Of a stretch of DNA of 64,000 bases, positions 3,791-48,517 are shown one piece after another. Positions within the stretch are counted from its first letter, which is position 1; every line of letters starts with the position of its first letter. A model generated the notes under the pieces. It did no database searches and was not told the DNA's origin. It worked only from the letters and a program-made list of their open reading frames with translations. The position numbers and the translations under genes were made by a program. Source of the DNA: Dictyostelium discoideum (Eukaryota); assembly GCA_000004695.1 (NCBI GenBank), contig CM000155.2, forward strand, positions 3,200,001 to 3,264,000, in the 5' to 3' direction.

Positions 3791-3866
3791 GTTATCACAA
3801 CAACGAAAGATTTTTACACTAACTTAGATCTAAGTTAGTGTAAAAATCGTTCGTTGTTGTGATAAC
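3791..3866. repeat. 76-bp near-perfect palindrome (38-bp arms, 1 mismatch, centred on AGATCT), followed by a GC-richer tail to about 4030 with CCAATGG/CAGTGGCAA motifs
   Basis: gttatcacaacaacgaaagatttttacactaacttaga|tctaagttagtgtaaaaatcgttcgttgttgtgataac, read directly from the sequence. The local composition is far less AT-rich than the flanks. Confidence 0.85.
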
Positions 3867-8861: not shown

Positions 8862-9118
8862 CGATGCATATGAACTACACCCAATCCCAGCATTAGCACC
8901 ATTCATACAGAACTGCATCTGGTTCAGCTCTGAGTTCTATGAAGTTTAATGGGTAAAGACTATCTTCAGTAACTAATTTAACGACGTGAAGTTTTAAAAA
9001 ATTTGGACGATGTATACGAACTACACCCAATCATGTCATTAAATTAATTACTTAAGAGAGTCTTTACCCATTTAACTTCATTAAACTCAGAGCTGAACCA
9101 GATGCAGCACCAGCTGTA
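8862..9118. repeat. Compound repeat: a 25-bp direct repeat (8862..8886 and 9019..9043), each followed by the same ~50-bp segment in opposite orientation (8911..8961 vs 9070..9118)
   Basis: cgatgcatatgaactacacccaatc / cgatgtatacgaactacacccaatc. gaactgcatctggttcagctctgag...tttaatgggtaaagact versus its reverse complement agtctttacccatttaac...ctcagagctgaaccagatgcag. The surrounding 8620..9213 is GC-richer than normal for this genome. Confidence 0.7.
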
Positions 9119-28766: not shown

Positions 28767-31700
28767 TTAATTTATTTCAATTAACCAAATTGTACTTAAT
28801 TCACTTTATTAATTTTTTTTTTTTTTTTAAAAAAAAGGGATATCACCAACAATTAATTTAGAAGAAATTATAGATTTAACATTTTATCCAGACCAATCAG
28901 CAGTAGTAACAATGCCTGTTGCTTATAGCCAGATTATAAAATTTAAACTTATAACCAATTTAACTACCACCACCAATCAACCATATTTTAATTTATATAA
29001 TAATGGATTTAATTTAGCTGTTAGACCAATTTTAGGTAGTTTAGGTAACATAACTTACATTTCATCTTGTTACTATTCTTCAAGTACTAAACAACATTCA
29101 TTATATCATCAAAATGGTCAACCAAGTTTTATTGGTGATATTCAATTTGATACAACTCAATCTTGTAAGTATATATTATTATAATTAATATTTTGACTAT
29201 AAATAAATAATGATAGAAATAAAAAATTAATTTATTAATTATTTTTTTAATTTTTTAAAAAAAAAAAAAGATGATACGGGATCAACTGTTCAAGTTAGAG
29301 TTGAGCCAGTTATAATGGATAATAATAAAACTATAACATTTTATACTGGTAATCTTTTAAATCGTTTAAAATATGATTTTAAACCAATAACTTATTCATC
29401 TAATTCAGATTATGATACATTTAGTGATGGATTTCCATTTGGATTTATTAATGGTAATAATTTAAATTATAATTTAACATATTCAATTAAAACATTTAAA
29501 GATTTATATCCATCAATAGATATTCATGTTAGTACACTATCTGGTAGTTCATCAAGATCTATTATCCCATTTAATCAACTCGCTTTTAATCAAAGTGAAT
29601 TACCAAATGTAGTTGATATACAATCAATTTATTTAGGTGAGTTTAAATTTTTAATTCAATTTAAAATTAAAGTTAATGGTTTATATCCAATAAATACAAT
29701 TAAAATTAATATAAATGAACCATCAAGCCAAGAAATACAAACATTAGTTTTAAAACCAATAAATATAATTTCTGGTTCTTTATTTGACGGCATTTGGGAA
29801 ACAATTCATGATGGTGTTAAATATGGAAAAGGAAATTTAAATAATCCACTTCAAATTTTTTCATTCTCTGGTATGTCAAAAATTTTAAATATCCAAGATC
29901 CATTTTCAATTGAATCGCCAACAAAAACTTTTGAATTACCATTTATAAAATTAAATAATAATCGTAAGTATTTTATTTATTAAATAATATTTATAATAAT
30001 AATAATTTATTAATTTTTTATAATTTTTTTTTTTTTTTTTTTTTAAAGAAAATAATATTTTAAAGGATTTAGTTAATGTTACATTTTTATATGATACAAT
30101 TGATGTTACAAATCAAGTTGGTTCAAATATTTTATATTTCAATTTTACAAATTCTGATAATTATAAGAATTTACCAATTGCATTTAGTTTAATTGATGCA
30201 AAAACTTTAAGTGATAATAATTTCGATTTATCTTTAAATTCAGATAATGATAAATTATCTGATAATTGGGTATTTGCTGAATGGGTAAATAATAGATTTC
30301 AAGTTAAATTTAAAATACCTTCAAATACAATGCCTGGTATTATAAATTATTTTTTAGTATTTACAAAGGAAATTAAAGTATTTAGTTCATCATTACCACA
30401 ATCTTCTCAATTAAATATAGTTTCAAATAGTATGTATAAATATAAATAAAATTTATAATAATAAAGTATCTAAAAATATTAATACTAAAATTTTATTATT
30501 AATTTTTTTAGATATTGATATATATGGTCCAATATTTAGTAAAATTATAAAGAATCCACCAAATTTAGAATCAGATTCATTAGGTTGGTTAATAACTATT
30601 GAAGATAGTATTAATGGATTTAGAGATGGTTATATTACAGTTAGAGGTGTAGTAGATTCTTCACTTTATAATTTTACAATTGATCCAACAAAATCAATTA
30701 GTGGAGATAAATGGAGTGGTGACTATGAAATCTATATTAAAGAGAATCAGGTACGATGCGTTCCACAATCATATGAAATTGTAGAGGTTGTATTATTTGA
30801 TACTTTTAATAATAAAGCATCATATATTAAATTTACAGAGAATAATTTAGAGAATACAAAATTCAATCCATTTATAAATTATTTAAATGATATTACCATT
30901 GTAACAGTATCACCACCAAGTTTAATTTGTAATAGTGCTGTTGATTATACAGCACCAATAATAACATCATTTACAAGTAGTGTTGAAAGTTTAGATGTCG
31001 GTTCATTGAATGGTAGAAGTGTGACATTTGAATTTGAATGTCAAGATAATGAAAGTGGTATTAGATTAAACCAATTCCCGATTATTTATTTAACTACATT
31101 GAATTTAGAAATTCATAAATGTATTTCAACAAATTCAACACCATTTCAAACAAATACAAAATTCACATGTACAACCACTGTATCACTTGGATTTGGGTTC
31201 CCTTCAGAGATTATTATTTCAGTTTATGGGTTAATTAATAATGGTGGTTATTATGGAGGTTATTCAACTCTATCATTAAAAGAATTAGGATTTGATTATT
31301 ACATTAAAACTATTACTCAATTTACAGAGGATCAACCAATTATTCAATCAACTAATACTATTACAAACCAAGGTGGTAAATTAATGATTTATGGTAGAAA
31401 ATTAAATTGTGATGGTTCAGGTTCAGTAAATGTACTTTTAAAATATTTAGATGATGGTTTAGATAACTTCATTTCATTTACACCAAAAACAATATATGAT
31501 AGTTTTATTTTAATTGAAAATATTAGACCAACAAATCAATCATTTATAATTAAAATTTCAAATTCATTAATTGAATCAAATGAATTTAAAGTTACACCAA
31601 TTTTATTTTATTTTAATATTCCAATTGAACCAACCAATTCACCAACTGAAACACCTACACCTACAACAACAACAACACCAACACCAACACCAACCACTTC

Positions 31701-32745
31701 ATTATTACCAACAGTTAGTCCAATACCAACTAATCCACCACAAAAATGTCAAGGTAATCCAGAATGTGGTGGACCAAATCAAGGTACTTGTAAAGATGGT
31801 GGATGTGTTTGTTTTTCACCATTCATCGGTTTAACTTGTACTTCACAAGTGATAGTTGTTCCACCACCAACTATTAACACTACTGATCCTTCAACTGAAG
31901 TTACAATACCACCACCAAATAATGAAAATATTATATTTAAATCATTAATATCACTAGTATCATTAAGAGAATTAGATTTTAATGGAAAAGAAATTCAAGT
32001 ATTCAATTTTGAAAAATGGATTTATACACCACTTGGTAATAATAAATATTTATATGAAACATCAATTTCAAATGAAATAACTACAAATATCATTACAACA
32101 ATAGAATGGTTTAATAGTAGTGAAATTATTGAATTTGCAAATCAAAAACTTGAAATGAATCCATCATCAGTTAAATACACTATTGAAATTAGTAAATACT
32201 CATTTAAATCATCATTAAATACATTACAATTAGTAATGTCTGCTAAATTAACTAGTAATACTCAAGATGATGATATTTGTTCATCAAAGCAATTTGGTAA
32301 TACAACCAATGGTGATGATTCAAATTTCTTAAAGATTCAAGTTGATAATTATTCAGTATATGGTAGATTTATTAAACGTGCTATTATAGATGAAAAAGTA
32401 CAATCAATTGAAAATTTACAATTAGATCAATCAATGAATCCAATCTCAAAATCATATTCAACTCAAAGTTTTATTGGTATTACAATTCCACAATATTTAA
32501 ATTCTCTTATAATCGATCCTGATTTTTCAATATTAGTCGATCAAAAAGCTGCATCAACTAATTCTGAAAATTCAATTTGTTCAAATAATAATAATTCCTC
32601 TTCTTTATCAGGTGGTCAAATCGCTGGTATTGTTATTGGTAGTGTTGCTTTCTTAGCTGTTTTAATCACTTGTGTCATTTATTATTTTCATAAAAAAAAA
32701 GAGAGTCTATTATTAAAAAAATCTTTCAATTTGAAAAATAATTAA
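27956..32745 (+). CDS. Large type I cell-surface glycoprotein: signal peptide, EGF-like Cys module, Thr/Pro-rich mucin-like linker, one C-terminal TM helix. 6 exons; all 5 introns are phase 1
   Basis: Exons approx 27956..28325, 28429..28707, 28838..29164, 29271..29963, 30049..30429 and 30512..32745. Every junction uses GTAAGT/GTATGT/GTATTT donors and AG acceptors, and reading frames check out across all of them. Signal peptide MKYKIRLLIFYVFSLFCFVNC. Linker and EGF-like module PTNSPTETPTPTTTTTPTPTPTTS...CQGNPECGGPNQGTCKDGGCVCFSPFIGLTCTS. TM helix IAGIVIGSVAFLAVLITCVIYYF followed by HKKK. Confidence 0.75.
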
Positions 32746-32779
32746 AAAGTTGTAATATTTATGGAAATCTTTTTTCTAA

Positions 32780-32837
<58 letters not shown>

Positions 32838-33470
32838 CTGAAATAATAAATAAATATTTATTTGAAAATTTTTTTTTTACAAGTGGTTATATAAACAAAT
32901 TAATTTTGGTGTGGTAAACACAAAATAAAAATAAATTTAAATTAAATAATAAAAACACCATAAAAACAGTGTTATTTTTTATTTATTTTAAAATAAATTT
33001 ATGTGATTCTTTTTTTTTAATCCAGCAAAACGTCAACGGAGGTATCTCAATCAATCACTATTTTCTAAATATTAATTTTTTATTATTAAACCATTATATT
33101 GAATTAATTAGAATAAAAAAATAAAATAAAAAAATAAAATAAAAAATAAAATAAAATGATAAAAAAAAAAAAAAAAAAAAAGAAATTAAACAAAAATTAA
33201 AGAAAATTATTTCGAAATTGTTTTAAACAATCATACAGTTTAAAATTAAATAAATTGTTTTAAACCACCACTTTTTTAAAACATATGAAAATAAATAAGA
33301 AATAATAATAAAAAGATAAAAAAAGAATTTTTTTTTTTTTTTTTAATATTATATATTCTTGTTGTCAGTATTGTTACTATAATTAATCCCATGGGTTTTT
33401 TATTATTATTATTTTTAATTCTTTTATATTTGAGATTATTATTAATTAAATAACTTTAAGTTTTTTTTTA

Positions 33471-33680
33471 TTTTTCTATGCACAAAATTACCATATTAAT
33501 TTCGGCAGCCATATTAATTTCAGCCTAAAATAGTTTATCTGTTCTTGACAAAATTAATATGGCTGCTGAAATTAATATGGTAATTTTGGGCATAGAAAAA
33601 TAAAAAAAACTATCAGACATAAGTCCCATGCCAAAATTATCATATTAATTTCAGCAGCCATATTAATTTTGGCATGGGAC
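33471..33680. repeat. Two tandem, sequence-related hairpins: IR 33471..33520 / 33551..33600 (about 50-bp arms, 2 mismatches) and IR 33623..33639 / 33664..33680. The loop of the second hairpin carries the 28-nt core motif of the first hairpin's arm
   Basis: caaaattaccatattaatttcggcagccatattaattt versus aaattaatatggctgctgaaattaatatggtaattttg. gtcccatgccaaaatta...tcatattaatttcagcagccatattaat...taattttggcatgggac. Confidence 0.8.
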
Positions 33681-34621
33681 ATATATTAAATATGATTTTT
33701 TTTTAGATCATATAAAATAAAAAAAAGTATATAAAAAAAAAAAAAAAAAAAAAAAAAAACTTTTTGTTTAAACACTAAATGATCATTAGTTTTTTAAATA
33801 TTTATTCTATTAAATAATAAACTGGTTATATACTATCAAATTTTTTTTTTTTAACGATACATAAATAATAAATAACTATAATATCAAATAAAAAAAATTT
33901 AATGATGCATTGGGTAATATCGAAAAAAATTTAAACAAAGATGCATTGAATTGGGAAGAAAAATTAACTATTAGTGATTCAGATAGTAGTGACAGTGATC
34001 CAGATACACCAATACAGGGACTTATACCAGAAAATTAACCAAAAACCACAAAAACAGTTAAACCAGTTGCAAATTAATAAACAAATAAATAAAAAAAAAA
34101 TAAATAAATAAATAAATAAAATAAAAAAAAAAAAAAAAATAAAAAAAATACAAATAACATACTAATAAATATTATTTAACGAAGTTACTATCTCTTCCAC
34201 AAAATATAAACGTAGATTTGAAAATTTCAATGAAAATGATGGTTGCTTAAAAGAGTTAATAGAAAAAGAAATTATAATTCAAAAAAATAGAAAGATTAAT
34301 TTATTGGATATTGAATTCAAACAGTATTTTAAAATACCCTGATAAATAATTAGGATACATAAATACATTTAAGCCTAAGGAAATAAATAGAAGGTAGTTT
34401 GGTCAGTGGATGAAATAATAGAACAAGAAATTAAAAATATTATGACCAATTATAATAAAAAATGATTTTTAAATAAAAAATTAAAATAAACTAACTATTT
34501 AAAGTTTGTATTTTTATTTGTAGCTTTTTTTTGAATTGGATAACGCAATTATTAGTTGCTTCTCCTTGAGATGCTAGATCTTATTTTATTTGTAGTTTTT
34601 TACAGATAAAAGAGGGGTTAG

Positions 34622-34982: not shown

Positions 34983-35026
34983 TTTGTAGCCAAATTGATG
35001 TAAATTTTTAAAATTTCATCAAAAAT

Positions 35027-35099
35027 GCCTGGATGGCTCAGTAGGCAGAGCGAGCGGCTGTTAACCGCTAGGTCCATGGTTCGATCCCATGTCTAGGCG
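35027..35099 (+). tRNA. tRNA-Asn (anticodon GUU)
   Basis: Cloverleaf folded by hand. Acceptor stem GCCTGGA/TCTAGGC (one G-U pair). D-stem GCTC/GAGC. Anticodon stem AGCGG/CCGCT with loop CTGTTAA, giving GTT at positions 34-36. T-stem CATGG/CCATG with loop TTCGATC. Discriminator G. Total 73 nt. Confidence 0.9.
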
Positions 35100-35130
35100 A
35101 TACTTTTCTATGAGAATAGAATTAGATCGC

Positions 35131-35365: not shown

Positions 35366-36304
35366 CTAATTATAACGATTTGCATGACCATAACCTTTAT
35401 TATGACCAGCAGTAAAAGTTTTTAAAGTATAAATATACTTTTTTAAATGTGAATGATTTGGATATTGTTGTTCAAGTTTAGTTGAATATTTGTCTACTTT
35501 AATAATATATTTATTTAATAGACCAACACAATATTTTAAAGCTAAGTCAATTGAACCAAGTTGAATTGCTCTAACTTTAACAAAGTTTGTTAATAAAATT
35601 TCATTGATTTCCATTTTGAATGAACCACAATCATTGATCATTAAATTACAAAGTTCAAAATATTTAAAGAATTTTTTGAAATTTTTTGATTCTCTAATTT
35701 CATTCTCAACATATAAAGTTGAAGTACAAGAGGAAGCAGTAATTGTCATACCGAAATCACCATGTCTTGAATTGAAATAATCTTCAATGGAAAGTGATGA
35801 ATTTAATGATTTATATTTATTGGTTTTAATGGCACTTCTACTCCAATATTCAAAATCTCTAATTAATAAATCAACAGATTCTTTAACACCAACTCTATAG
35901 TATTCATCAAATAATCTCCAAATTTCACGACCAAATGGATCATGACTCTTACTTGATCTATCCATTAAATTATCCACATAATCCTCTTCATAATTACGTG
36001 ATTCATATATGTAATCATCTAAAATGAAAAGAAAATCCAACAATTTTGAATTTACCATATATTCATCCTTTTCACCCAATGGAAAATTCAAAGCAGCAAT
36101 TTTACCAATTTCATTCTTTTTTACATAATTCACAGCATTTTCATAGTTTTGAAAAAATTGTTTAACATATTCCATTTCTTGATTTTCAAAATCTTTATCA
36201 AATGGACTACTTTTAAAATCCCAAGGAAGAGTATACTTTGGAATTCTAATTTCTTGATCCAAAAATTGATTTTTATCCCAAGTAAATTTTATATCATAAT
36301 CCAT
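35366..36304 (-). CDS. Class I terpene synthase (microbial-type TPS), single exon, 312 aa
   Basis: Aspartate-rich motif FILDDYIYE (DDxx(x)D/E) and NSE/DTE motif NDCGSFKME (NDxxSxxxE) at the canonical spacing, about 140 residues apart. All-helical composition and size fit the Dictyostelium DdTPS family. Confidence 0.75.
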   Translation of the reverse strand: MDYDIKFTWDKNQFLDQEIRIPKYTLPWDFKSSPFDKDFENQEMEYVKQFFQNYENAVNYVKKNEIGKIAALNFPLGEKDEYMVNSKLLDFLFILDDYIYESRNYEEDYVDNLMDRSSKSHDPFGREIWRLFDEYYRVGVKESVDLLIRDFEYWSRSAIKTNKYKSLNSSLSIEDYFNSRHGDFGMTITASSCTSTLYVENEIRESKNFKKFFKYFELCNLMINDCGSFKMEINEILLTNFVKVRAIQLGSIDLALKYCVGLLNKYIIKVDKYSTKLEQQYPNHSHLKKYIYTLKTFTAGHNKGYGHANRYN

Positions 36305-36527
36305 TTTTTTAAATTTTTTTTTTTTTTTTTTTAATAATTTTTATTTATGATTCAAAATTTTGGAAATATTTGATCAATTTAAATATAAAAAAAAAATGAT
36401 AAAAAAAAAAAAAAATAATAAAAAAAAAAAAAAAATAATAATTAAAAAAAAAAATTATTCTCTTAATTTGGAAATAAAAACAGTTTGATCCCTAATTTAT
36501 TATAAAAAATTTAAAATAAACTAAAAT

Positions 36528-36696
36528 ATATTCAAACTTTTTAATATTTGTTCAACTGATGAAGATAAACTTCTTTGTTAACTACATCAGTAGAACAAAT
36601 ATTAAAAAGTTTGAATATTATTTAATTTATTTTAAATTAATATTCAAACTTTTTAATATTTGTTCAACTGATGTAGTTAACAAAGAAGATAAAATT
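36528..36696. repeat. ~170-bp compound palindrome in the TPS/P450 bidirectional promoter. Arrangement: A1(36528..36561) - B(36562..36584) - A1 inverted (36585..36618) - spacer - A2 direct (36640..36673) - B inverted (36674..36696)
   Basis: A = atattcaaactttttaatatttgttcaactgatg. B = aagataaacttctttgttaacta. The inverted copies have 1-2 mismatches. Lies between the TPS ATG (36304, minus) and the P450 ATG (36989, plus). Confidence 0.85.
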
Positions 36697-36909
36697 AATT
36701 AATTGAATGTTTTTATTTTGGAAATGGTCTTTTTATCCACGTAATAAACTGTTAATTAAAAAATAACAATCAGATTATAAAAAAAAAAAAATTATATTTT
36801 TAACAGATTTACCCTCAAAATATCAAAGGGGTTTTTTTTTTTTTAATTTTCCAAAAAAAAAAAAAAAAAAAAAAAAAACCAGTTGTGTTTTTTTAGGGCT
36901 TTATAAAAA

Positions 36910-36945
<36 letters not shown>

Positions 36946-36988
36946 TATATTAATTTTTTTTTTTTTGGAATGATATAATTTAAAGAAA

Positions 36989-38571
36989 ATGATTTTATTA
37001 ACACTTTTATATTTAATTATTTTTTATATTATAATAGATTTTATAAAAAAAAATTATAAAACAAAAAATCAATTACCATCACCATTAGGAATTGCATTAC
37101 CAATTATTGGTCATTTACATTTATTACGTACCGATCCATATAAAACATTAGCTAAAGCATCGAAAAAAACAGAACATGGTATTTTAAAATGTTGGAATGG
37201 TGAGCATTTAATGGTTGTAGTTGATAATCCATCAATAATTAAACAAATGTATGTAAATACAAATAATTTTACAGATAGACCACAAACCAAAGTATTTGAA
37301 ATCATTTCAAGAAATTATAAAAATAGTGGTTTTGCAAATGGTGAAAAATGGAAACATCTCAGAGGTTTATATGCACCAAGTTTTACAAAAATTAAATCAA
37401 GACCACATGAAAATATAATTTTAAAATATGTAAATTTTGAAATTAAATCTTTAAAAAATCATGCAATTACAAATTCAATTGTAAGTTTGACCCCCCCCCC
37501 CCTTTTTTTTATTTATTTTTAAATTTTAATTAATAAATCATTATTAACTTTTTCTTTTTTATTTTCTATTAATAATAAAATAAATAGTATAATCCATTTT
37601 TAATTGAAAATATTAATTCATTTGGTACAAAAGTTATTACAGAAATTATATTTGGTAGAGAGTTTAGTGAAAATGAAGTTTACTCATTAATTGGACCAAT
37701 GAATAAATTATTTGGTATATTGGATACACCATTTCCATCAGAGAGTATATCATTTTTAAAACCATTTTATAGAAGATCTTATAAAGAATGTGATAAACAA
37801 TGTGAAGAATTATTTAAATTGGTTGAAAAAGTTTATGATGATCATTTATTGAATCTAGACAAAGACAACCCAAAAGATGTAATGGATGTAATGATTGTTG
37901 AAACTGATTTCAAAGAAAAGGATCATGTAATTTGTATATGTTGTGATTTATTAATGGGTACAAAAGATACATTCAATACAATTGTTTTATGGTTTTTTGT
38001 ATTAATGATAAATTATCAAGATGTGCAATTGAAGGGATATCAAGAGATAATCAAGGTTTTGGAATGCACAGGTCGAGATCATGTAACAATTGAAGATATC
38101 GATAAATTACCATACATTGATGGAATTATTAAAGAAATCTCAAGAATTCATCCAGCAGGTCCTTTATCAGTACCAAGAACTGCAATCAATGATATAATGA
38201 TCAATGGTTATTTCATTCCAAAAGGTTGTCATGTTTTTCAAAATACTTATGGTGCAGTTTATAATTATATGAAAGAATCTGATGAACCTTGTAAAATGAA
38301 ACCAGAAAGATGGATTGAAAATGAAAAATTAAGAAAAGATGGTAAATTAGACCCAACTAATGATTTAGCATTGATTTCATTACCTTTTTCAAGCGGAATT
38401 AGAAATTGTCCTGGTGTTGGTTTTGCAGAGTATGAATTATTCTTATTATTTTCAAATATCATTTTAAATTTTCATTTATCAAGTCCAAATAATCTAAAAC
38501 TCAATGAAAGTGGTCATTTTGGTCTTACAATGAAACCATTTCCATTTTTAGTTGATTTAAAATTAAGATAA
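36989..38571 (+). CDS. Cytochrome P450 monooxygenase, 2 exons, about 492 aa
   Basis: Exons approx 36989..37480 and 37588..38571 (donor GTAAGT, phase 0). N-terminal membrane anchor, then the P450 Pro-rich hinge LPSPLGIALPIIGHLHLL. K-helix ExxR region EISRIHP. Heme-binding loop FSSGIRNCPGVGFAEYELF (FxxGxRxCxG). Confidence 0.85.
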
Positions 38572-38631: not shown

Positions 38632-38980
38632 TTTATTTTTATTTTTATTTTTATTTTTATTTTTATTTTTATTTTTATTTTTATTATTATTATCTTCTTT
38701 TTTAGTAAATATTTTTTATACAACATATTAATAAAATTAAAAATCATTTATTTTTCTTTATTTTTTTTTTTTTTTTTTTTTTATTTTTTTTTATTTGTAT
38801 ATAATATTTTAAAATCGATTTTTTGTAATTTGACATAAAAAAAAAAAAAAAAAATAAAAAAATAATAAAATTAAAAACAAAAATAAAAATAAAAACTCAC
38901 TTTCTTTTTTTTTTTATTTTAGAAATTATTATTATTTGTTTCTTTTTTAAATATAAAAAATTAAAAAAAAATTTTTAATA

Positions 38981-39230
38981 ATGTCACAAAATGAATATGA
39001 CAAAAGTAATTCACTTTTAAATATATTTTCAATAAAAAAAATAACGTTAGAGAATGAAACTCTACTAAATTCAAAGATACCATGGGAAATAATTAAGAAT
39101 GGTAATGTTATTGATTTAGGTTGTGGTAATGGATGGTTTTGTAGAGAAATGATTGAAAAAGGTGTAAACCAAATTATTGGTGTTGACATTTCTGAAAAAT
39201 TAATTAAAAAAGCAATAGAATTAAATAAAG

Positions 39231-39279
<49 letters not shown>

Positions 39280-39460
39280 AAAATTAAAATATTATGTCAC
39301 TGATTTAGATAATTTCCAACTTAATGAAACTCCTTTTAATTCATTAATTGGTTCATTTGATTTTGCATTTAGTTCATTTGTAACTCATTATCTATCAGAT
39401 TTAGAATCATATTTTAAAAAAGTTTACAATTTATTAAAATCAAATAATAATAATAATAAT

Positions 39461-39530
<70 letters not shown>

Positions 39531-39889
39531 GAGGTAGTAGTTTTATATTTTTAGCAGAACATCCAATGAGAACTTCAACAAAATGTATTGAAAATAAATT
39601 TATAAATCATAAATTTGAAGGTGATGAAAATTCAAAAATGGTTTGGCCAATTTCAGATTATAGTGAAGAAGGTAAAAGAGTAACTAATTGGGCTGGATCA
39701 AGTGGAATTATTAAATATCATTATACAATTGAAACTTATGTAAACACTTTAATTAAAGTAGGTTTTAAAATTGATTATCTAGGTGAATTAAATCTTGTAG
39801 AAAGACAATTACAATTTAGTAATTCTGGTGATATATCTATAGAAGCAAATAGACCATTTACACTATTTATTAAAGTGTCAAAAAATTAA
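38981..39889 (+). CDS. Class I SAM-dependent methyltransferase, paralog 1 (302 aa), with two in-frame poly-Asn insertions
   Basis: Motif I VIDLGCGNGWFCREMIEKGVNQIIGVDISEKLIKKA (DxGxGxG plus acidic residue at the end of beta2). About 85-90% identical to the ORF at 41196..41987 apart from the (AAT)n insertions [19 protein letters not shown] and [35 protein letters not shown]. Confidence 0.75.
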
Positions 39890-40642
39890 TAAAAAAAAAA
39901 AAAAAATAAAAAAAAAAAGTTAAAAAAGTAAATAATTTAAATTTAATAATAAATAATTAATAAAAAATAAAAATAAATGTAAATTTCATTTCATTATCAC
40001 AAAAATAAAATATATACGTTATTTTATTAATTTAAAAATTATTGTACATGTTGTGCCAAGAACTTTTATTAGAAAAATAAGATGAAATAAAATAAAATGA
40101 TCTTTATTTTATAATTTTCTTTTTAAATTTTTATTATTATTAAAATTATGAATTTTAATAATAAAATATTCAATCGACATTAATAAGTCCACGTGGTTTT
40201 TACCCACGTGGGGTGAGAAAAGTTTAATTATATAAATTTTGATAATACAAGATTTTATTGCAATAATCCAATTATAGTATTTTGATAATAAATAATTAAA
40301 TTGCATTATTCGACTAATTAATTAAATTATTTTCAATTTTATTTTTTATTTAATTTTAAATACAACATATTTAAAACTGGTTATCTTTAAAAAAAAAATA
40401 AAAAAATATTAATAGTTTTATAGTGTTTTTAAAAAAAAAAAAAAAAAATTTGGACGGATAATTGTGAAAAATTTGGACGGATAATGGTGAAAAAATAAGG
40501 ATAATCAAAAAAAACCCTTTTAATACAAAGATGGAAAAAGGGAAAACATATTTTTTAAAACTATGGAATTATCATAATGTTATTATTTCATGGATAAGGA
40601 TAATCAAAAAAAACCCTTTTAATTCAAAGATGGAAAAAGGGA

Positions 40643-40681
<39 letters not shown>

Positions 40682-41195
40682 TATTAGATTGAATTTATGG
40701 ATTTGGAGATTTTATATCGATACAAATATTTGGTAATTTTAATATGAAGCATTAACGATAAGCCCGTTGTGTTGCCATTGTGTAGCAAGTATTTCATGCA
40801 TCATATAGGTTCAATACAAATTTTCTATTTATAATTAACAATACCCCTTGTAATTTCTAATCTATGAATGTTTTAGTGTGAATTTTTTTTACAAAATTTC
40901 CAAGTCACCACTAAATAATAAAAAATAATAATAACTCTCTGTAAAAAAAAAAATATTGTTTAGGTTAATTATTACATATATGTGTTATTGTTTATTTAGT
41001 ACTTGATTGTTGCAGAAAAAAAAATATTTAAATTTAAATTTTACAGATTAAAAAAACTCATCGATGAATTTAACAGGTAAAATTAATATGATCCCGTATA
41101 AAAAAATTGATTTGAGTAAAAAAATATAAATTAACTTTTTTTTTTTTTTTTTATTTCAAAAAACTATTATTTGTTTAATAAATAAATTTTTAAAA

Positions 41196-41987
41196 ATGTC
41201 ACAAAATGAATATGACAAAAATGATTCACTTTTTAATAAATTTTCAAATAAAAATTTAACTATAGAGAATGAAACTCTACTATTTTCAATGATACCATGG
41301 GAAATTGTTAAGAATGGAAATGTTATTGATTTTGGTTGTGGTAATGGATGGTTTTGTAGAGAAATGATTGAAAAAGGTGTAAACCAAATTATTGGTGTTG
41401 ACATTTCTGAAAAATTAATTAAAAAAGCAATAGAATTAAATAAAGATAATAATGAAAAATCAAAATATTATGTCACTGATTTAGATAATTTCCAACTTAA
41501 TGAAACTCCTTTTAATTCATTAATTGGTTCATTTGATTTTGCATTTAGTTCATATTTAACTCATTATTTATCAGATTTAGAATCATTTTTTAAAAAAGTT
41601 TACAATTTATTAAAATCAAATAATAATAATGGTAGTAGTTTTATATTTTTTGCAGAACATCCAATGAGAACTTCAACAAAATGTATTGAAAATAAATTTA
41701 TTAGTCATAAATTTGAAGGTGATGAAAATTCAAAAATGGTTTGGCCAATTTCAAATTATAGTGAAGAAGGTAAAAGAGTTACTAAATGGGCTGGATCAAA
41801 TGGAATTGTTAAATATCATTATACAATTGAAACTTATGTAAACACTTTAATTAAAGTAGGTTTTAAAATTGATTATATAGGTGAATTAAATCTTGTAGAA
41901 AAACAATTACAACTTTGCAATTCTGGTGATATAACAATAGAAGCAAATAGTCCATTTACACTATTTATTAAAGTAATAAAAAATTAA
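41196..41987 (+). CDS. Class I SAM-dependent methyltransferase, paralog 2 (263 aa)
   Basis: VIDFGCGNGWFCREMIEKGVNQIIGVDISEKLIKKA. Tandem duplicate of 38981..39889, lacking the poly-Asn tracts. Confidence 0.75.
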   Translation: MSQNEYDKNDSLFNKFSNKNLTIENETLLFSMIPWEIVKNGNVIDFGCGNGWFCREMIEKGVNQIIGVDISEKLIKKAIELNKDNNEKSKYYVTDLDNFQLNETPFNSLIGSFDFAFSSYLTHYLSDLESFFKKVYNLLKSNNNNGSSFIFFAEHPMRTSTKCIENKFISHKFEGDENSKMVWPISNYSEEGKRVTKWAGSNGIVKYHYTIETYVNTLIKVGFKIDYIGELNLVEKQLQLCNSGDITIEANSPFTLFIKVIKN

Positions 41988-42620
41988 TTAAAGAAAGCTT
42001 TAATTTTTTTAAAAAAGTAAATCATTTTTATATTAAAAAAAAAAAATAAAAAAAATAAAAAAAAAAAAATAAAAAAAATAAAAAAAAAAGATTTTTTAAT
42101 CTTTTTTTTTTTTTCACCTATCCTTTTTGACAAATTAACACAGCAATTTCAAAAGTTATGTTTAAAAATTAATTATTTATTTTTTTTTCCCCACCATTTT
42201 AGCTTTTTTTTGATACACACAGAATAATAAAGAAATATTAATAAAAATAAAGAAATAATAATAAAATTCTTTTTTTTTTTTTTTAAAAAATTATTATTTT
42301 ATTAATTACCAATCACGTAGTTTAGTGTGCTCGAAATTGATAAAATTATTATGTTAACAGACACGAAATATGTTCGTTTTACAATTTAAAAAAATAATGC
42401 AGTTTCTGTTTCTCGTTAAAATAATTGTGACCTAAACAAAAATTAAAAAAAAAAAAAATAAAAAAACAATTAAATAAAAAATAAAAATAAAAAATAAAAT
42501 AAAACTGGGATTCAAAAATAAAAGCAAGCTCTAATCTATTATAATTTTTAATTAAATATGTGTTAATCTAATTCTTCAATACACCTCTAAACTTTTCACT
42601 TATATAAAAAAAAAAAAAAA

Positions 42621-42905
42621 ATGACATTAATTGGTATACCACGTGGTACACCTCAAATTGAAGTTATGTTTGATGTTGATAGTAATGGTATTTTAAATGT
42701 TGCAGCTGAAGATAAAACTTCTAAAAAAGTTGAAAAAATAACTATCACCAATGACAAAGGTCGTCCCTCTCTAAAAGATATTAATAAAATGGTTGAAGAT
42801 GCAGAGAAATTTAAAGAACAAGATCAACAACAAATTTTGAAAGTTTATTTTACAAATTATTGCATAAATAAAAAAAAAAAAAAAGATTTACAAAATTTTA
42901 TTTAA
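42621..42905 (+). pseudogene. Internally deleted Hsp70 copy: the first ~6 codons (MTLIGI) fused to the C-terminal ~70 codons of the substrate-binding/lid region. About 93% nt identity to 44640..44860 of the neighbouring full gene
   Basis: atgacattaattggtata|ccacgtggtacacctcaaattgaagtt versus the full gene's 5' end atgacatcaattggtatagat and internal ggtatcccaccagcaccacgtggtacacctcaaattgaagtt. The deletion junction sits in a shared tggtat microhomology. The ORF ends after a diverged tail. Confidence 0.6.
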
Positions 42906-43023
42906 AATAATAAAATGAGAAAATAATATAATTTTAAAAAACCAATAGTATTTAATGTATTTTTTTAATTAAAATTATAGAAATCCTATCCCTTGTTTAA
43001 ACAAATCTAATCGAAAAATCTGG

Positions 43024-43067
43024 TGAATTTCAACTGTTTCCCAAAAATGTGAAATTTCAGAAAATTA
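43024..43067 (+). promoter_or_regulatory. Heat-shock elements (alternating nGAAn/nTTCn units) about 180-220 bp upstream of the Hsp70 ATG
   Basis: gtGAAtTTCaac (43025..43031) and tGAAatTTCaGAAaaTT (43051..43066), a three-unit HSE. Confidence 0.6.
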
Positions 43068-43241
43068 AATTTAAAAAAAAAAGCAAAAAAAAAAAAACTA
43101 TTTATATTCGCTGTTTTATTTTTAATTTCTATTATTAATTATTTCTTTTTTTTTATATTTATATATATTAATTATTTTCTTATTACTTTTTTCGTTATTA
43201 AATTTAAATTTTTAATAGATTATTAAAAAAAAAAAAAAAAA

Positions 43242-45134
43242 ATGACATCAATTGGTATAGATTTAGGAACAACATATTCTTGTGTTGGTGTTTGGTTGAA
43301 TGATCGTGTTGAAATTATTGCAAATGATCAAGGTAATAGAACTACTCCATCATATGTTGCATTCAATGATACAGAGCGTTTAATTGGTGATGCTGCAAAG
43401 AATCAAGTTGCAATGAATCCAATAAATACAGTTTTCGATGCAAAACGTTTAATTGGTAGGAAATTTTCAGATAGTGTTGTTCAAAGTGATATGAAACATT
43501 GGCCATTTAAAGTTATAACAAATAAAAACGATGATAAACCATTAATTCAAGTTGATTTCAAAGGTGAAACTAAAACATTCTCACCTGAAGAAATTTCATC
43601 AATGGTATTATCAAAAATGAAAGAAACTGCTGAATCATATTTAGGTAAACCTGTTAACAATGCAGTTATAACAGTTCCAGCTTATTTCAATGATGGACAA
43701 CGTCAAGCAACTAAGGATGCTGGTACAATTTCAAAATTAAATGTTCAACGTATCATTAATGAACCAAGTGCTGCTGCTATTGCATATGGTTTAGATAAGA
43801 AAGGTAGTAAAAGTGGTGAAATAAAAGTTTTAATATTCGATTTGGGTGGTGGTACATTTGATGTTTCATTACTATCAATTGATGATGGTGTATTTGAAGT
43901 TTTAGCAACAGCTGGTGATACTCATTTAGGTGGTGAAGATTTTGATAATCGTTTAGTGAATCACTTTGTAGATGAATTCAAACGTAAACATAAGAAGGAT
44001 ATAATGGGTAACCAACGTGCTCTTCGTCGTTTGAGAACTGCATGTGAACGTGCAAAAAGAACACTATCATCATCATCTCAAGCATCAGTTGAAATTGATT
44101 CACTTTATGATGGTATTGATTTCTATACCTCAATTACCAGAGCACGTTTTGAAGAACTTTGTTCTGACCTTTTCAATAATTGTATTGAACCAGTTGAAAA
44201 AGTTTTAAAAGATTGTAAATTGGATAAGAAATCAATAGATGAAATTGTATTAGTTGGTGGTTCAACTCGTATTCCAAAAGTTCAACAATTAATTCAAAAT
44301 CTTTTCAATGGTAAAGAATTAAATAAATCAATTAATCCTGACGAAGCCGTTGCATATGGTGCAGCAGTACAAGCTGCTATTCTATCAGGTGATAAAAGCT
44401 CAAGAATCTCTGAATTAATTTTCATTGATGTTGCACCATTATCATTGGGTATTGAAACTGTTGGTGGTGTAATGACAAACATCGTTCCAAGAAACACAAT
44501 TATCCCATGTAAAAAGACACAAACTTTTTCAACTCACACAGATAATCAAAGTGGTGTTTTAATTCAAGTTTATGAGGGTGAACGTACAATGACAAAAGAT
44601 AATAATCTATTGGGTAAATTTGAATTAACTGGTATCCCACCAGCACCACGTGGTACACCTCAAATTGAAGTTAGTTTCGATGTTGATAGTAATGGTATTT
44701 TAAATGTTACAGCTGAAGATAAAACTACTAAAAAAGTTGAAAAAATAACTATCACCAATGACAAAGGTCGTCTCTCTCTAAAAGATATTACTAAAATGGT
44801 TGAAGATGCAGAGAAATTTAAAGAACAAGATCAACAACAAAAAGAACGTATTGAATCAAAGAATAATCTTGAAAACTATATATTTTCTGTAAAAAATTCA
44901 ATTAATGACCAGAAAATCATTTCAAAACTCTCTAAATCTGATAAAAATATTATTGAATCTGAAACTGAAAGTACTCTTAAATGGTTAGAATCAAATCAAT
45001 CTGCCGAAAAGGATGAATTTAATCAAAAGATATCAGATCTTGAATCAATTGTTAACCCAATCCTTAGTAAATTCTATCAAGGTAATAATAATCCAAAACC
45101 AACCACAACTACTTTTAACCAAGATCTTGATTAA
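43242..45134 (+). CDS. Hsp70 family chaperone (630 aa, intronless, no C-terminal EEVD)
   Basis: Canonical Hsp70 signatures: [40 protein letters not shown]. Substrate-binding domain and lid present. Ends ...TTFNQDLD. HSEs upstream. Confidence 0.9.
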
Positions 45135-45643
45135 AATTAAATATATAAATTTCAGTGTAAAAAAATAAAAAAATTAAATATACATTCCATAAAGTTTTCC
45201 TTTTCCCAATCATTTCTCTACAAAACCATCCATTACTACAAATAATAATTTTCTAAAATATCAAAAAAAAAATAAAAAAAAAAAATAAAAAAAAAAATAA
45301 AAAAAAAAAAAAATTTATTAATTTTTTTTTGGAGTGACAGAATTCTGTTCTGTTCTGTGGTTGTATTTAAATTCAATTATATTCTCATTTTAATTATATT
45401 GATATTTGTAGTCATTTAAATATTTTTAGTGGTAGACTTCAAATGATCTTTCTTTGAACATTTGTTGAGTTTTGTAATATATAAAACAAATATTTATCTG
45501 TTTTGGTAACTTTTTATTTAATTGTTTTTATTTGAAAAAAAAAAATAAAATAAAATAAAGAATTAAAAATAAAAAATAAATTAGAAAATTAAAATAACGA
45601 AATATTAAATGAAAAAAGGGGTAAAAATATCTTTATTTTATTT

Positions 45644-45674
<31 letters not shown>

Positions 45675-46115
45675 GACACAGAGTTTGTGGTTTTAATAAA
45701 TAAAAACGAATTTGTTTATCATTAATTTGAAATTTCATTTTTTTATAATTTTATCCGTTTTTGTATAATTTGTCAAAAATGTATATTTATAAATGAAACA
45801 AAGAATTTGTTTACTTGAAATTCTATTGTGGTTAAATTTTTGACTTTGTAGGATTGTAATTTAAATTACAAATTATAATAATTTGGAAAAAATAGATTTT
45901 CAATTTAATTATTTTTTTTTTAAAAAAAAAAAAAAAGTATAAATTAAAAATAAATTTTAATGTTTTATTTCATTCACAAATTATTTAATTACAAAATAAA
46001 ATAACAAAAATAAAATGACACTCTTTTGTAAGAATTTAATTATATTTTTTATTTAATTTAAAAATAAAGTTACTAATTTATTTATTTTAAAAAACTATTA
46101 GCTTCAATCTCATCA

Positions 46116-46355
46116 ATGTCAAGTTCAATGACAAGCTCAAAATCCAGCTTTGCATCTTTTGGTAATGGAACAAGGGTGAGTTCAAATTCAATTGCATGTA
46201 GTGTTGACTGTGACGGCAAAGGTGTTAGCTCAGGATCAGACTTAACAGGAGGCGCTAAATCAGGTGGAGATTGTGGTGGTAAAGGAAGACCAAATAATCA
46301 TGGTCATGGTCATGAAAATTGTCATGGTGGTAAAGGTCCAGGAAATTCATGTTAA
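46116..46355 (+). CDS. Small (79 aa) Ser/Gly/Cys/His-rich hypothetical protein
   Basis: [26 protein letters not shown]...[26 protein letters not shown], with Dictyostelium-like codon usage. Low-complexity composition. Followed by a (TTTATTTA)n array at 46437..46495. Expression is unverified. Confidence 0.3.
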
Positions 46356-46432
46356 TGTTAATATTAATTTGTACTACAATGTAATATTACATTATTTAAA
46401 ATAAAATGGCGATTAAAAAAATGTGTGGAGCT

Positions 46433-46491
<59 letters not shown>

Positions 46492-46807
46492 TATATATTT
46501 TTATTTTTATTTTTATTTTTAATTTTTTTTTTATTTTTATTTATTTTTTTATTTAATTTCTTTTTTTATAACCATGTGGAAATTAAATTTTTAAATGTTT
46601 TTTTTTTTTAAAAAAAGATATTTTTTTTTTTTTATTTTTTTTTTTGATGATTTTTCATCAACACAAATAATTAATAATGAATGTTTTTGAATTAATTAAA
46701 AAAAAAATTATTTATAAATCACTTATTTATTAAAATAATATTTTATTTTATTTTATTTTATCTATATTTTCATACAGTTAAGCTTAACTTTTTACAAATT
46801 TTATAAA

Positions 46808-48517
46808 ATGCCATCAATGGGTATAGATTTAGGAACAACATATTCTTGTGTTGGTGTTTGCAATGAAAAAGGTCGTATTGAAATTATTGCAAATGATCAA
46901 GGTAATAGAACTACCCCATCATATGTTTCATTTAATAATAGAGAATGTTTAATTGGAGATGATGCAATGAATCAAGTTGCAATGAATCCAGTTAATACCA
47001 TTTTCGATGTAAAACGTTTATTTGGTAGAAAATATTCAGATAGTGTTGTTCAAAGTGATATGAAACTTTGGCCATTTAAAGTTATAGCAAATAAATTTGA
47101 TGATAAACCATTAATTCAAGTTGATTTCAAAGGTGAAACTAAAACATTCTCACCTGAAGAAATTTCATCAATGGTATTATCAAAAATGAAAGAAATTGTA
47201 GAACAACACTTGGGTGAACCTGTTACAGATGCAGTTATAACAGTTCCAGCTTATTTCAATGATAGACAGCGCCATGCAACCAAATATGCAGGTACAATTT
47301 CAAATTTAAATGTATTAAGAATTATTAATGAACCAACTGCTACTGCAATTGCATATGGTTTACATAGGAGAGGTATTGATGATATGAAAGTTTTAATAAT
47401 CGATCTAGGTGGTGGTACATTTGATGTTTCATTATTCAATATAGAAGATGGTATATATGAAATTTTATTATCAGGTGGTGACAATCATTTAGGTGGTGCG
47501 GATTTTAATAATCGTTTAATGAATCACTTTATAGATGAATTTAAACTTAAACATAAAAAAGATATAACCAATAATCAACGTGCTATTTTTCGTTTAAGAA
47601 CTGCATGTGAACGTGCAAAGAGAACTTTATCAATTTCATCATTAGCATCGATTGAAATTGACTCACTTTATGATGGTATTGATTTTTATTCAACAATTAC
47701 AAGAACACATTTTGAAAAACTTTGTTCTGACCTTTTCCATAGTTGTATCGATCATGTTGAAACAATTTTAAATAAATGTAAATTAGATAAAAGTTTAGTA
47801 GATGAAATTGTATTAGCTGGTGGTTCAACTCAAATTCCAAAGATACAAAGAATGTTTAAAGAATACTTCAATGGTAAAGAATTTAACAACTCGATTAACC
47901 CTGATGAAGTTGTTGCATATGGTGCAGCAGTACAATCTGGAGTTATTTCAGGCAAAGGTTCAAACTTTCCTCAACTTATTTTTTTAAATGTTACACCATT
48001 ATCAATGGGTATTGAAACTGTTGGTGGAATAATGACAAATCTTGTTGAAAGAAATACTCATATTCCTATTAAAAAAACGCAAACTTTTTCAACCCAATAT
48101 GATAATCAAACCAATGTTTTAATTCAAATTTATGAAGGTGAACGTACAATGACTAAAGATAATAATCTAATTGGTACATTTGAATTAAATGGTATCCCAC
48201 CAGCACCACGTGGTGTTACCCAGATTGAAGTTTGTTTTGATGTTGATATAGATGGTATATTAACAGTTAGTGCAGAAGATAAAACCACAAAAAAAGTTCA
48301 AAAAATCACCATCTCCAATATTAATGATCATCTCTCAAAAGTAGAGATTGAAAAAATGATAGTAGATGGTGAGAAATTTAAACAACAAGATCAACAACAA
48401 AAAAAAGAACTTATTGAATCAAATTATAAAATATATTGTGGTGATGAAAACACATTAGATTTTGAAATTACTCAAAAATTGTTAGGATCAGCTCAATCTA
48501 CTGAAATGAACGAATGA
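46808..48517 (+). CDS. Divergent Hsp70 paralog (569 aa) with a truncated C-terminal lid and substitutions in conserved ATPase motifs
   Basis: [24 protein letters not shown] and [14 protein letters not shown] are conserved. However QRQATKDAG is [20 protein letters not shown] is [11 protein letters not shown], and the protein ends shortly after the beta-sandwich. Confidence 0.8.

What the first reader, a model, noticed from the sequence alone, without database searches (positions are those of the whole stretch)
33471..33680. Two tandem, related hairpins sharing a 28-nt core motif in opposite structural contexts (arm in one, loop in the other)
Hairpin 1 has about 50-bp arms built from the duplicated unit ccatattaattt-cRgcagccatattaattt. 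Hairpin 2, 23 bp downstream, has 17-bp arms (gtcccatgccaaaatta) and carries the same unit in its loop. This modular reuse looks like recombination between copies of a small structured element, or a pair of small structured RNA genes. The location is intergenic, about 1.4 kb upstream of the tRNA-Asn.
Basis: seen in the sequence. Interest (0 to 1): 0.5.

Follow-up and report, generated by a model that had tools for sequence, protein, structure and literature searches.

The report
Transposon-derived microRNA hairpin copy in Dictyostelium
The two hairpins are real, but they are a strain-lineage-specific extra copy of a palindromic repeat from the Dictyostelium discoideum thug-S transposon, a repeat already known to give rise to a multicopy microRNA family, so this is an ordinary new member of a known kind.

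Summary
Hairpin 1 (H1) has 59-nt arms (33462-33520 / 33551-33609, 97% complementary, 30-nt loop). Hairpin 2 (H2) has 17-bp arms (33623-33639 / 33664-33680). The 29-nt core occurs three times, in +,-,+ orientation, and nowhere else in the 64-kb window.

The window is D. discoideum AX4 (exact TPS8 protein). The element belongs to a known family:
- The published 21-nt small RNA miRNA_can_D3-3p (AUUAAUUUCGGCAGCCAUAUU; Meier et al. 2016) matches 33495-33515 exactly.
- Its partner 23-mer matches 33558-33580 with one mismatch.
- The 63-nt offset between them equals that at all six published loci, which that paper places inside the DNA transposon thug-S.
- Rfam mir-7131 hits 33554-33666 at 73.8 bits (threshold 74), with about 94% identity on the arms.

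The "arm versus loop" reuse is explained by three copies of one X-core-X' unit. H2 equals an H1 arm joined to the outer end of the opposite arm.

The hairpins are absent from the orthologous region in four related Dictyostelium genomes, so this is not a conserved RNA gene. Whether this copy is transcribed and diced could not be tested.

Verdict: a new, slightly degenerate member of a known transposon-derived miRNA hairpin family. Low interest.

The parts
33462..33520 (+). H1 left arm: T-rich outer stem, X motif (TATGCACAAAATTA) and core copy 1 (33491-33519)
   Evidence: I1: 59-nt arms, 97% complementary
33495..33515 (+). Exact 21-nt match to the published small RNA miRNA_can_D3-3p (AUUAAUUUCGGCAGCCAUAUU)
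   Evidence: 0 mismatches, 0 expected by chance; sequence from PMC4894637 Table 2
33521..33550 (+). H1 loop (30 nt). Its 3' end (33544-33556, CTTGACAAAATTA) is a degenerate X motif, which makes the H1 right half an inverted copy of the H2 unit
33551..33609 (+). H1 right arm: core copy 2 in inverse orientation (33552-33580), X' motif and A-rich outer stem
33558..33580 (+). 22/23 match to the published miRNA_can_D3-5p (UAUGGCUGCUGAAAUUAAUGUGG). It starts 63 nt after the 21-mer, as at all six published loci
   Evidence: PMC4894637 S4 Table
33554..33666 (.). Alternative hairpin (H1 right arm pairs with the H2 unit). It matches Rfam RF03716 mir-7131 on both strands at 73.8 / 73.6 bits (gathering score 74), with a 34-41-nt loop insertion
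   Evidence: (I2)
33623..33680 (+). H2: X (33623-33639), core copy 3 (33640-33668) and X' (33664-33680). 17-bp stem, 24-nt loop
33644..33664 (+). Second D3-3p-like 21-mer (A for G, 1 mismatch), inside the H2 loop
33000..34090 (.). Segment of about 1.1 kb that contains the hairpins and is present only in the AX4-type genomes (window and L001). It has no alignable counterpart in L003-L006. Boundaries are approximate and lie in low-complexity A/T runs

Best explanation
The locus is a slightly degenerate copy of the palindromic module of the D. discoideum thug-S repeat. It lies on what appears to be chromosome 6 and is specific to the AX4 lineage. The same sequence family produces the multicopy miRNAs known as miRNA_can_D3 and Rfam mir-7131.

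Anatomy (shown). One unit is present three times in +,-,+ orientation. The unit is X (CATGCCAAAATTA-like), a 29-nt core, and X'. Copies 1 and 2 pair to form the 59-bp H1. Copy 3 pairs its own X with X' to form H2, which leaves the core in the loop. Copies 2 and 3 can pair instead to give a mir-7131-type hairpin. That is why the same 28-29 nt sits in an arm in one hairpin and in a loop in the other. H2 equals an H1 arm fused through the shared TAATTT to the outer end of the opposite arm.

Mechanism (inferred, not shown for this copy). If the + strand is transcribed, H1 forms first and is the most stable fold. At 148 nt it has the size of known D. discoideum pre-miRNAs. The nuclear DrnB/RbdB dicing machinery would cut out the loop-proximal duplex 33495-33515 / 33558-33578. 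That would release a 21-mer identical to the published RbdB-dependent small RNA and a partner differing by one base. Because the family is palindromic, these small RNAs are complementary to transcripts of all thug-S copies. Their most likely role is therefore trans-silencing or regulation of thug-S-containing transcripts.
For: Organism. The TPS8 protein encoded at 35366-36304 is identical to D. discoideum AX4 XP_629084.1 / Q54BE5. A 3.62-Mb contig (L001) is 99.8% identical and carries the hairpins unchanged.

Family.
- Exact 21-nt match to miRNA_can_D3-3p.
- 22/23 match to D3-5p.
- A 63-nt offset identical to all six loci in S4 Table of PMC4894637.
- The Northern probe DM227 matches 22/23.
- That paper places the RNA in thug-S and reports RbdB dependence: relative reads 68 in AX2, 3.3 in rbdB-, 186 in agnA-.
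- PMC6161686 also describes multicopy miRNA loci within thug-S.
- Rfam mir-7131 scores 73.8 bits against a gathering score of 74, E = 1e-16, with about 66/70 arm letters identical to the consensus.
- Other long hairpins in the same window get only generic MIR hits far below their thresholds: 66 vs 230 and 35 vs 74.

Anatomy..

Dicer-like geometry. With arm pairing i + j = 67071, the 21-mer has a 2-nt 3' overhang relative to 33558.

Strand. The G.U wobble at 33503 on the + strand is also present in the published 3p/5p pair.

Not a conserved gene. The core is absent (up to 4 mismatches) from four orthologous 21-kb loci, and there is no mir-7131 hit there, while the flanking genes and the tRNA are conserved.
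Against: - No expression data for this locus could be consulted. Published reads of the exact 21-mer could all come from the six canonical loci.
- The locus is not among the six loci listed by Meier et al., none of which is on chromosome 6.
- The Rfam score is 0.2 bits below the gathering threshold.
- No thug-S reference sequence was available (Glockner 2001 and Avesson 2012 are not held). I therefore could not show how much of the surrounding 1.1 kb is thug-S, or whether the H1-H2 arrangement is the canonical thug-S layout or a local rearrangement.
- The adjacent ORF fragment (33889-34038) has no homologue, which does not support a flanking thug-S exon.
- The assignment of Rfam mir-7131 to D. 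discoideum (ddi-mir-7131a-d) rests on my memory of miRBase plus the sequence identity. No held paper mentions it.
Confidence: 0.8

Rival explanations
1. Inert relic. The sequence has the same identity (a thug-S-type palindromic fragment) but is never transcribed or diced. It is only decaying repeat DNA, perhaps prone to cruciform or slippage rearrangements that produced H2.
For: The locus is absent from the published list of D3 loci. It carries one mismatch in the 23-mer. The loop of the mir-7131-type fold is expanded to 41 nt by A-rich sequence. It sits in a rearranged, lineage-specific intergenic segment next to a decayed gene copy. No gene product is on record across it.
Against: The H1 arms are still 97% complementary. 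The 21-mer is intact, with the same G.U wobble and 63-nt offset as the functional copies. This argues for a recent origin or for constraint. T-rich tracts ending in G, like those reported upstream of pri-miRNA start sites, occur just upstream (33396-33432, 33462-33480), but such tracts are common in this genome.
Confidence: 0.4
2. An autonomous-looking MITE. H1 (148 bp) and H2 (58 bp) would be non-autonomous miniature elements mobilised on their own by the thug-S transposase, and inserted here independently.
For: Both are nearly perfect terminal-inverted-repeat structures. H1 is flanked by AACTTTAAG / AACTATCAG (7/9 identical), a possible degenerate target-site duplication. The hairpins are absent from related genomes.
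Against: No clean empty site exists, because the whole ~1.1-kb segment differs between strains. A 7/9 match in 80% A+T DNA is weak evidence. No other copies exist in the window or in about 105 kb of related loci. The published copies are described as internal to thug-S, not as free MITEs.
Confidence: 0.12
3. Two independent structured small RNA genes of host origin.
For: Very stable folds on both strands. Intergenic location.
Against: The sequence belongs to a transposon-associated multicopy family. There is no conservation at the orthologous site in four related genomes, although the neighbouring tRNA and genes are conserved. H1 and H2 are copies of one unit. Both strands fold equally well, as expected of a DNA palindrome rather than a strand-specific RNA.
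Confidence: 0.03
4. De novo local duplication or inversion accident, unrelated to any repeat family.
For: All three core copies in the window are within 180 bp of each other.
Against: There are exact or near-exact matches to small RNAs mapped to six other genomic loci, and to an Rfam family built from other loci.
Confidence: 0.02

Closest known systems
miRNA_can_D3 / thug-S-derived miRNAs of D. discoideum (Meier et al. 2016, PMC4894637; first reported by Avesson et al. 2012)
   Same: The 21-mer is identical, the 23-mer matches 22/23, and the 63-nt offset within a long hairpin is identical. The G.U wobble is the same. The organism is the same.
   Different: This locus is not among the six published loci (chr2 three times, chr3, chr5 twice). 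It carries an A for G at position 20 of the 23-mer. No recognisable thug-S coding sequence was found around it. Expression from this copy is unknown.
Rfam RF03716 mir-7131 precursor family (from memory: miRBase ddi-mir-7131a-d)
   Same: The arms are about 94% identical to the family consensus, and the full model (1-84) aligns on both strands.
   Different: The loop is 34-41 nt, against 8-14 in the model. The score of 73.8 is just under the gathering score of 74. In this locus that fold competes with the much more stable H1 (-77 vs -59 kcal/mol).
MITE- or transposon-derived miRNA genes in plants and animals (for example, the MITE-derived MIR families whose covariance models gave generic matches here)
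   Same: The principle is the same: a transposon inverted repeat, transcribed as a long near-perfect hairpin, becomes a Dicer substrate.
   Different: There is no sequence relationship. The Rfam hits to MIR5512, MIR7807, MIR837 and others are purely structural and far below threshold.

Membership tests
miRNA_can_D3 (thug-S-derived miRNA, PMC4894637) | Contains the 21-nt sequence AUUAAUUUCGGCAGCCAUAUU | tested here: met
   Exact match at 33495-33515 (+)
miRNA_can_D3 (thug-S-derived miRNA, PMC4894637) | Contains the 23-nt partner UAUGGCUGCUGAAAUUAAUGUGG | tested here: not met
   22/23 at 33558-33580 (+), with A instead of G at position 20
miRNA_can_D3 (thug-S-derived miRNA, PMC4894637) | The two RNAs lie on opposite arms of one hairpin, 63 nt start-to-start on the same strand | tested here: met
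   33558 - 33495 = 63, and all six published loci have 63. The two sit on opposite arms of H1
miRNA_can_D3 (thug-S-derived miRNA, PMC4894637) | Located inside a thug-S element | not testable with these tools
   No thug-S reference sequence or D. discoideum whole genome was reachable. The flanking ORF fragment has no homologue
miRNA_can_D3 (thug-S-derived miRNA, PMC4894637) | RbdB/DrnB-dependent 20-24-nt RNAs produced from the locus | not testable with these tools
   No read data available. Published counts were taken at other loci
Rfam RF03716 mir-7131 | Covariance-model score at or above the gathering score (74 bits) | tested here: not met
   73.8 bits (-) and 73.6 bits (+), E about 1e-16. 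It misses by 0.2 bits because of a 34-41-nt loop insertion
Rfam RF03716 mir-7131 | Sequence identity of both arms to the family consensus | tested here: met
   About 33/34 and 33/36 letters identical in the alignment
MITE (miniature inverted-repeat transposable element) | Terminal inverted repeats | tested here: met
   H1 and H2 are palindromic end to end
MITE (miniature inverted-repeat transposable element) | Target-site duplication flanking the element | tested here: inconclusive
   AACTTTAAG / AACTATCAG (7/9) flank H1. This is not distinguishable from chance in A+T-rich DNA
MITE (miniature inverted-repeat transposable element) | Many dispersed solo copies, with filled and empty sites | tested here: inconclusive
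   The hairpins are absent from four related genomes at this locus, but there is no clean empty site. The genome-wide copy number was not searchable. The literature lists six loci, all said to be inside thug-S
Conserved structured ncRNA gene | Syntenic conservation with covariation | tested here: not met
   No counterpart in L003-L006, although the flanking genes and tRNA-Asn are conserved

The most novel reading that the evidence does not exclude
This chromosome-6 copy is an unannotated, active paralogue of the thug-S miRNA family that now lies outside any transposon. It would be a snapshot of a miRNA gene being born from a solo transposon fragment. In this reading, the +,-,+ triple arrangement lets the transcript choose between two mutually exclusive precursor folds: the H1 / D3-type fold and the mir-7131-type fold. 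The two folds present the same duplex with the loop at opposite ends, so Dicer would release different sets of small RNAs depending on where transcription starts.
Probability: 0.12. Interest if true: 0.4.

Novelty: new member of a known kind. Interest (0 to 1): 0.18.

Why it matters
It matters only modestly. For annotation, the locus should be labelled as a thug-S-type / mir-7131-family hairpin. It is a potential extra source of multi-mapping small-RNA reads, because the exact 21-mer means reads of miRNA_can_D3-3p cannot be assigned to the six published loci alone.

For evolution, it is a tidy example of how three copies of one palindromic transposon unit generate alternative hairpins. It also shows that such a copy is present in the AX4 lineage but not in related isolates. 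It opens no long-standing question.

Tried and rejected
1. Searching for further copies.
- The core occurs only at this locus in the window.
- One metagenome hit (L002) is a chance 23-nt match inside coding-like sequence with no inverted repeat.
- There are no hits in the bacterial/archaeal genome collection or the viral contigs.
- The D. discoideum genome itself is not searchable with these tools.

2. Testing whether the adjacent ORF fragment (33889-34038) is a thug-S exon. There is no homologue among 5.8 billion proteins.

3. Looking for called genes or Logan contigs across the hairpins, as a proxy for transcription. Nothing is on record.

4. Reading the primary descriptions. Avesson 2012 (PMC3446702), Glockner 2001 (PMC311061) and Eichinger 2005 (PMC1352341) are not held. 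The supplements of PMC6161686 and PMC11014262 contain no thug-S or mir-7131 sequences.

5. Finding a clean empty site in other strains. The whole interval of about 33000-34090 is non-alignable, so no insertion footprint can be read.

6. Generic Rfam miRNA hits (MIR5512, MIR7807, MIR837 and others) were rejected as structural artefacts of any long hairpin. Control hairpins elsewhere in the window behave the same way.

7. A link to the tRNA gene through tRNA-targeting retrotransposons was rejected. The distance is 1.35 kb, and the tRNA is conserved without the hairpins.

Full report

Yes. The region reads as described. The repeat finder gives H1 arms at 33462-33520 and 33551-33609: 59 nt, 97% complementary, with 30 nt between them. 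H2 has a perfect 17-bp stem at 33623-33639 / 33664-33680.

The 29-nt core CCATATTAATTTCRGCAGCCATATTAATT occurs three times: 33491 (+), 33552 (-) and 33640 (+, one mismatch). It occurs nowhere else in the 64-kb window, and zero matches are expected in shuffles.

As RNA, the region folds far beyond chance on both strands:
- Whole region: -105.2 kcal/mol (z = -16.1) on the + strand and -108.5 (z = -18.6) on the - strand.
- H1 alone: -77.2 / -76.8.
- H2 alone: -26.6 / -27.8.

The H1 right arm can pair with the H2 unit instead: 33546-33589 / 33631-33674, 44 nt, 95% complementary, -59.4 kcal/mol. tRNA-Asn is at 35026-35100.

**2. Whose genome is it?**

The window is about 20% G+C. The ORF at 35366-36304 (-) is identical to terpene synthase 8 of Dictyostelium discoideum AX4 (XP_629084.1 / Q54BE5). 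A 3.62-Mb contig of assembly GCA_054883475.1 (L001) is 99.8% identical over 21 kb and carries H1 and H2 unchanged. The contig size suggests chromosome 6; this is an inference from size alone.

**3. Anatomy.**

Let X = CATGCCAAAATTA-like, C = the 29-nt core, and primes denote reverse complements.
- H1 is X C - loop - C' X', with a T-rich / A-rich outer extension.
- H2 is X C X', where the last TAATTT of C doubles as the start of X'.
- The 3' end of the H1 loop (33544-33556, CTTGACAAAATTA) is itself a degenerate X. The H1 right half (33544-33593) is therefore an inverted copy of the whole H2 unit.
- The H2 unit is closest to the reverse complement of the H1 right arm, differing by one indel and one substitution over about 44 nt.

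So the locus holds three copies (+,-,+) of one unit. Whether the core ends up in a stem or in a loop depends only on which neighbour it pairs with. Equivalently, H2 equals H1 with its centre (about 66 nt) removed between the two TAATTT microhomologies. I cannot tell which form came first.

**4. What family is it?**

A permissive Rfam scan gave RF03716 (mir-7131) at 33554-33664 (-) and 33556-33666 (+). The scores are 73.8 and 73.6 bits against a gathering score of 74, with E about 1e-16. The whole 84-position model aligns, and about 66 of 70 arm letters are identical to the consensus. The only real difference is a loop of 34-41 nt instead of 8-14.

This match is not the generic behaviour of hairpins. 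Other long hairpins in this window (8913-9107, 36508-36707) also collect miRNA-family hits with small E-values, but these are far below threshold (66 vs 230 bits; 35 vs 74) and lack letter identity. The MIR5512, MIR7807 and MIR837 hits on H1 are of the same generic kind.

The literature independently identifies the family. Meier et al. 2016 (PMC4894637, Table 2) list miRNA_can_D3-3p (AUUAAUUUCGGCAGCCAUAUU) and miRNA_can_D3-5p (UAUGGCUGCUGAAAUUAAUGUGG).
- The 21-mer is present exactly at 33495-33515 (+).
- The 23-mer is present at 33558-33580 (+) with one mismatch.
- The start-to-start distance is 63 nt, exactly as at each of the six loci in their S4 Table: chr5 twice, chr3, chr2 three times.
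- Their Northern probe DM227 matches 22/23.

[quoted passage not shown] They add that thug-S-derived miRNAs were first published by Avesson et al. 2012. Its level falls from 68 to 3.3 in rbdB- cells and rises to 186 in agnA- cells. Liao et al. [quoted passage not shown] Thug elements make up about 0.1% of the genome (PMC5633606).

My recollection that Rfam mir-7131 derives from miRBase ddi-mir-7131a-d is memory, not a tool result. No held paper mentions that name.

One oddity concerns naming. By the published coordinates, the RNA that Meier et al. call "3p" lies upstream of their "5p" on the same strand, as it does here. The labels and the coordinates in that paper do not agree.

Taken together, the two sources imply that canonical copies contain C - loop - C' X' - short spacer - X C. 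The D3 geometry gives C - loop - C'. The Rfam model gives C' X' - 8-14 nt - X C. This is the same order as in this window, so the H1-then-H2 layout may simply be inherited from thug-S. I could not verify this without a thug-S sequence.

**5. Is it conserved?**

Using TPS8 variants, I fetched the orthologous locus from two other D. discoideum assemblies (L004, L005) and two "D. cf. discoideum" assemblies (L003, L006).
- The upstream gene (window 30000-32754) aligns at 94.7%.
- tRNA-Asn and TPS8 are conserved.
- Window 34079-34516 aligns at 77-86% to a small gene that is intact in those strains. In AX4 it carries in-frame stops.
- Window ~33000-34090, which contains both hairpins, has no counterpart. 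The core is absent (up to 4 mismatches) from all four 21-kb loci, and no mir-7131 hit appears there.

The other strains carry a second copy of the small gene in that interval instead. The hairpins are therefore lineage-specific. This argues against a conserved RNA gene and fits a repeat-derived insertion or replacement. Because the whole segment differs, there is no clean empty site, and no reliable target-site duplication can be read. The 7/9 match AACTTTAAG / AACTATCAG flanking H1 is weak.

**6. How it most likely works.**

Shown: identity with the thug-S / D3 / mir-7131 hairpin family, the three-unit anatomy, the alternative folds, and the lineage specificity.

Inferred: if the + strand is transcribed, H1 forms. 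At 148 nt it has the size of known D. discoideum pre-miRNAs, which span 143-153 nt in Liao's Table S1. The nuclear DrnB/RbdB machinery would then excise the loop-proximal duplex. With the arm pairing rule i + j = 67071, the 21-mer 33495-33515 pairs with 33556-33576. That leaves a 2-nt 3' overhang relative to the partner starting at 33558, which is a Dicer-like register.

The G.U wobble at 33503 exists only on the + strand and is shared with the published pair. This suggests that + is the relevant strand.

Because the family is palindromic, its small RNAs are complementary to every thug-S copy. Trans-silencing of thug-S transcripts is therefore the most plausible role. I put about 0.8 on the identity and about 0.4-0.5 on this particular copy being an active small-RNA source.

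**7. Rivals.**
- Inert relic of the same family: about 0.4 on the functional question.
- Independently mobile MITE: about 0.12.
- Host structured-RNA gene pair: about 0.03.
- De novo local accident: about 0.02.

**8. Novelty and score.**

The family and its mechanism are known. This locus is not among the six published loci, and it falls 0.2 bits short of the Rfam threshold. It is best called a new, slightly degenerate member of a known kind. Interest is low (0.18).

The most novel reading not excluded is a solo transposon fragment caught becoming a stand-alone miRNA gene, with two competing precursor folds. I give that about 0.12.

Noticed in passing
window 36508-36707: A second +,-,+ triple inverted repeat of an unrelated ~60-nt unit (ATATTCAAACTTTTTAATATTTGTTCAACTGATG...). 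It gives two overlapping hairpins: arms 36508-36568 / 36578-36638 at 90%, and 36551-36623 / 36635-36707 at 88%. It lies in the divergent intergenic region between terpene synthase 8 and the cytochrome P450 gene. It is partly conserved (77-87%) in L003-L005, and draws only generic sub-threshold Rfam miRNA hits.
   Followed up: partly
window 8913-8989 / 9031-9107: A long hairpin with 77-nt arms, 90% complementary, and a 41-nt loop. It has normal sequence complexity and is flanked by coding-like sequence, so it may be an intronic hairpin or an inverted duplication within a gene. Only generic Rfam hits were found (66 bits against a gathering score of 230).
   Followed up: partly
window 3791-3866: A 76-bp palindrome with no loop (38-nt arms, 97% complementary), of normal complexity, in a comparatively G+C-rich, coding-like stretch.
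   Followed up: no
window 34200-34445 (+): A decayed copy of a small gene (KYKRRFENFNENDGCLKELIEKEIIIQKNRKINLLDIEFKQY...) with in-frame stops in AX4. Related strains (L003-L005) carry intact-looking copies, two in tandem in L004, at the corresponding place.
   Followed up: partly
window 33889-34038 (+): An open frame without a start codon (..KKFNDALGNIEKNLNKDALNWEEKLTISDSDSSDSDPDTPIQGLIPEN*) inside the AX4-specific segment. It has no homologue in the 5.8-billion-protein collection.
   Followed up: yes
window 38961-39898 vs 41175-41996, and 42638-48423: Tandem paralogues. Two methyltransferase-like genes are about 92-96% identical. Hsp70-family genes are duplicated (83-97%). Copy number differs between the strains fetched.
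   Followed up: no
window 35366-38571: Terpene synthase 8 (TPS8) and a cytochrome P450 gene lie head to head. The pair is conserved in all five related loci.
   Followed up: no
PMC4894637, Table 2 vs S4 Table: The small RNA labelled miRNA_can_D3-3p lies upstream (5') of the one labelled -5p on the same strand at all six listed loci. The arm labels and the coordinates in that paper are therefore inconsistent.
   Followed up: partly
L002 3283-3305 (metagenome contig Ga0326513_10007278): The only exact 23-nt match to the core outside Dictyostelium. It lies in coding-like sequence of an A+T-rich organism and has no inverted repeat, so I judged it a chance match.
   Followed up: yes
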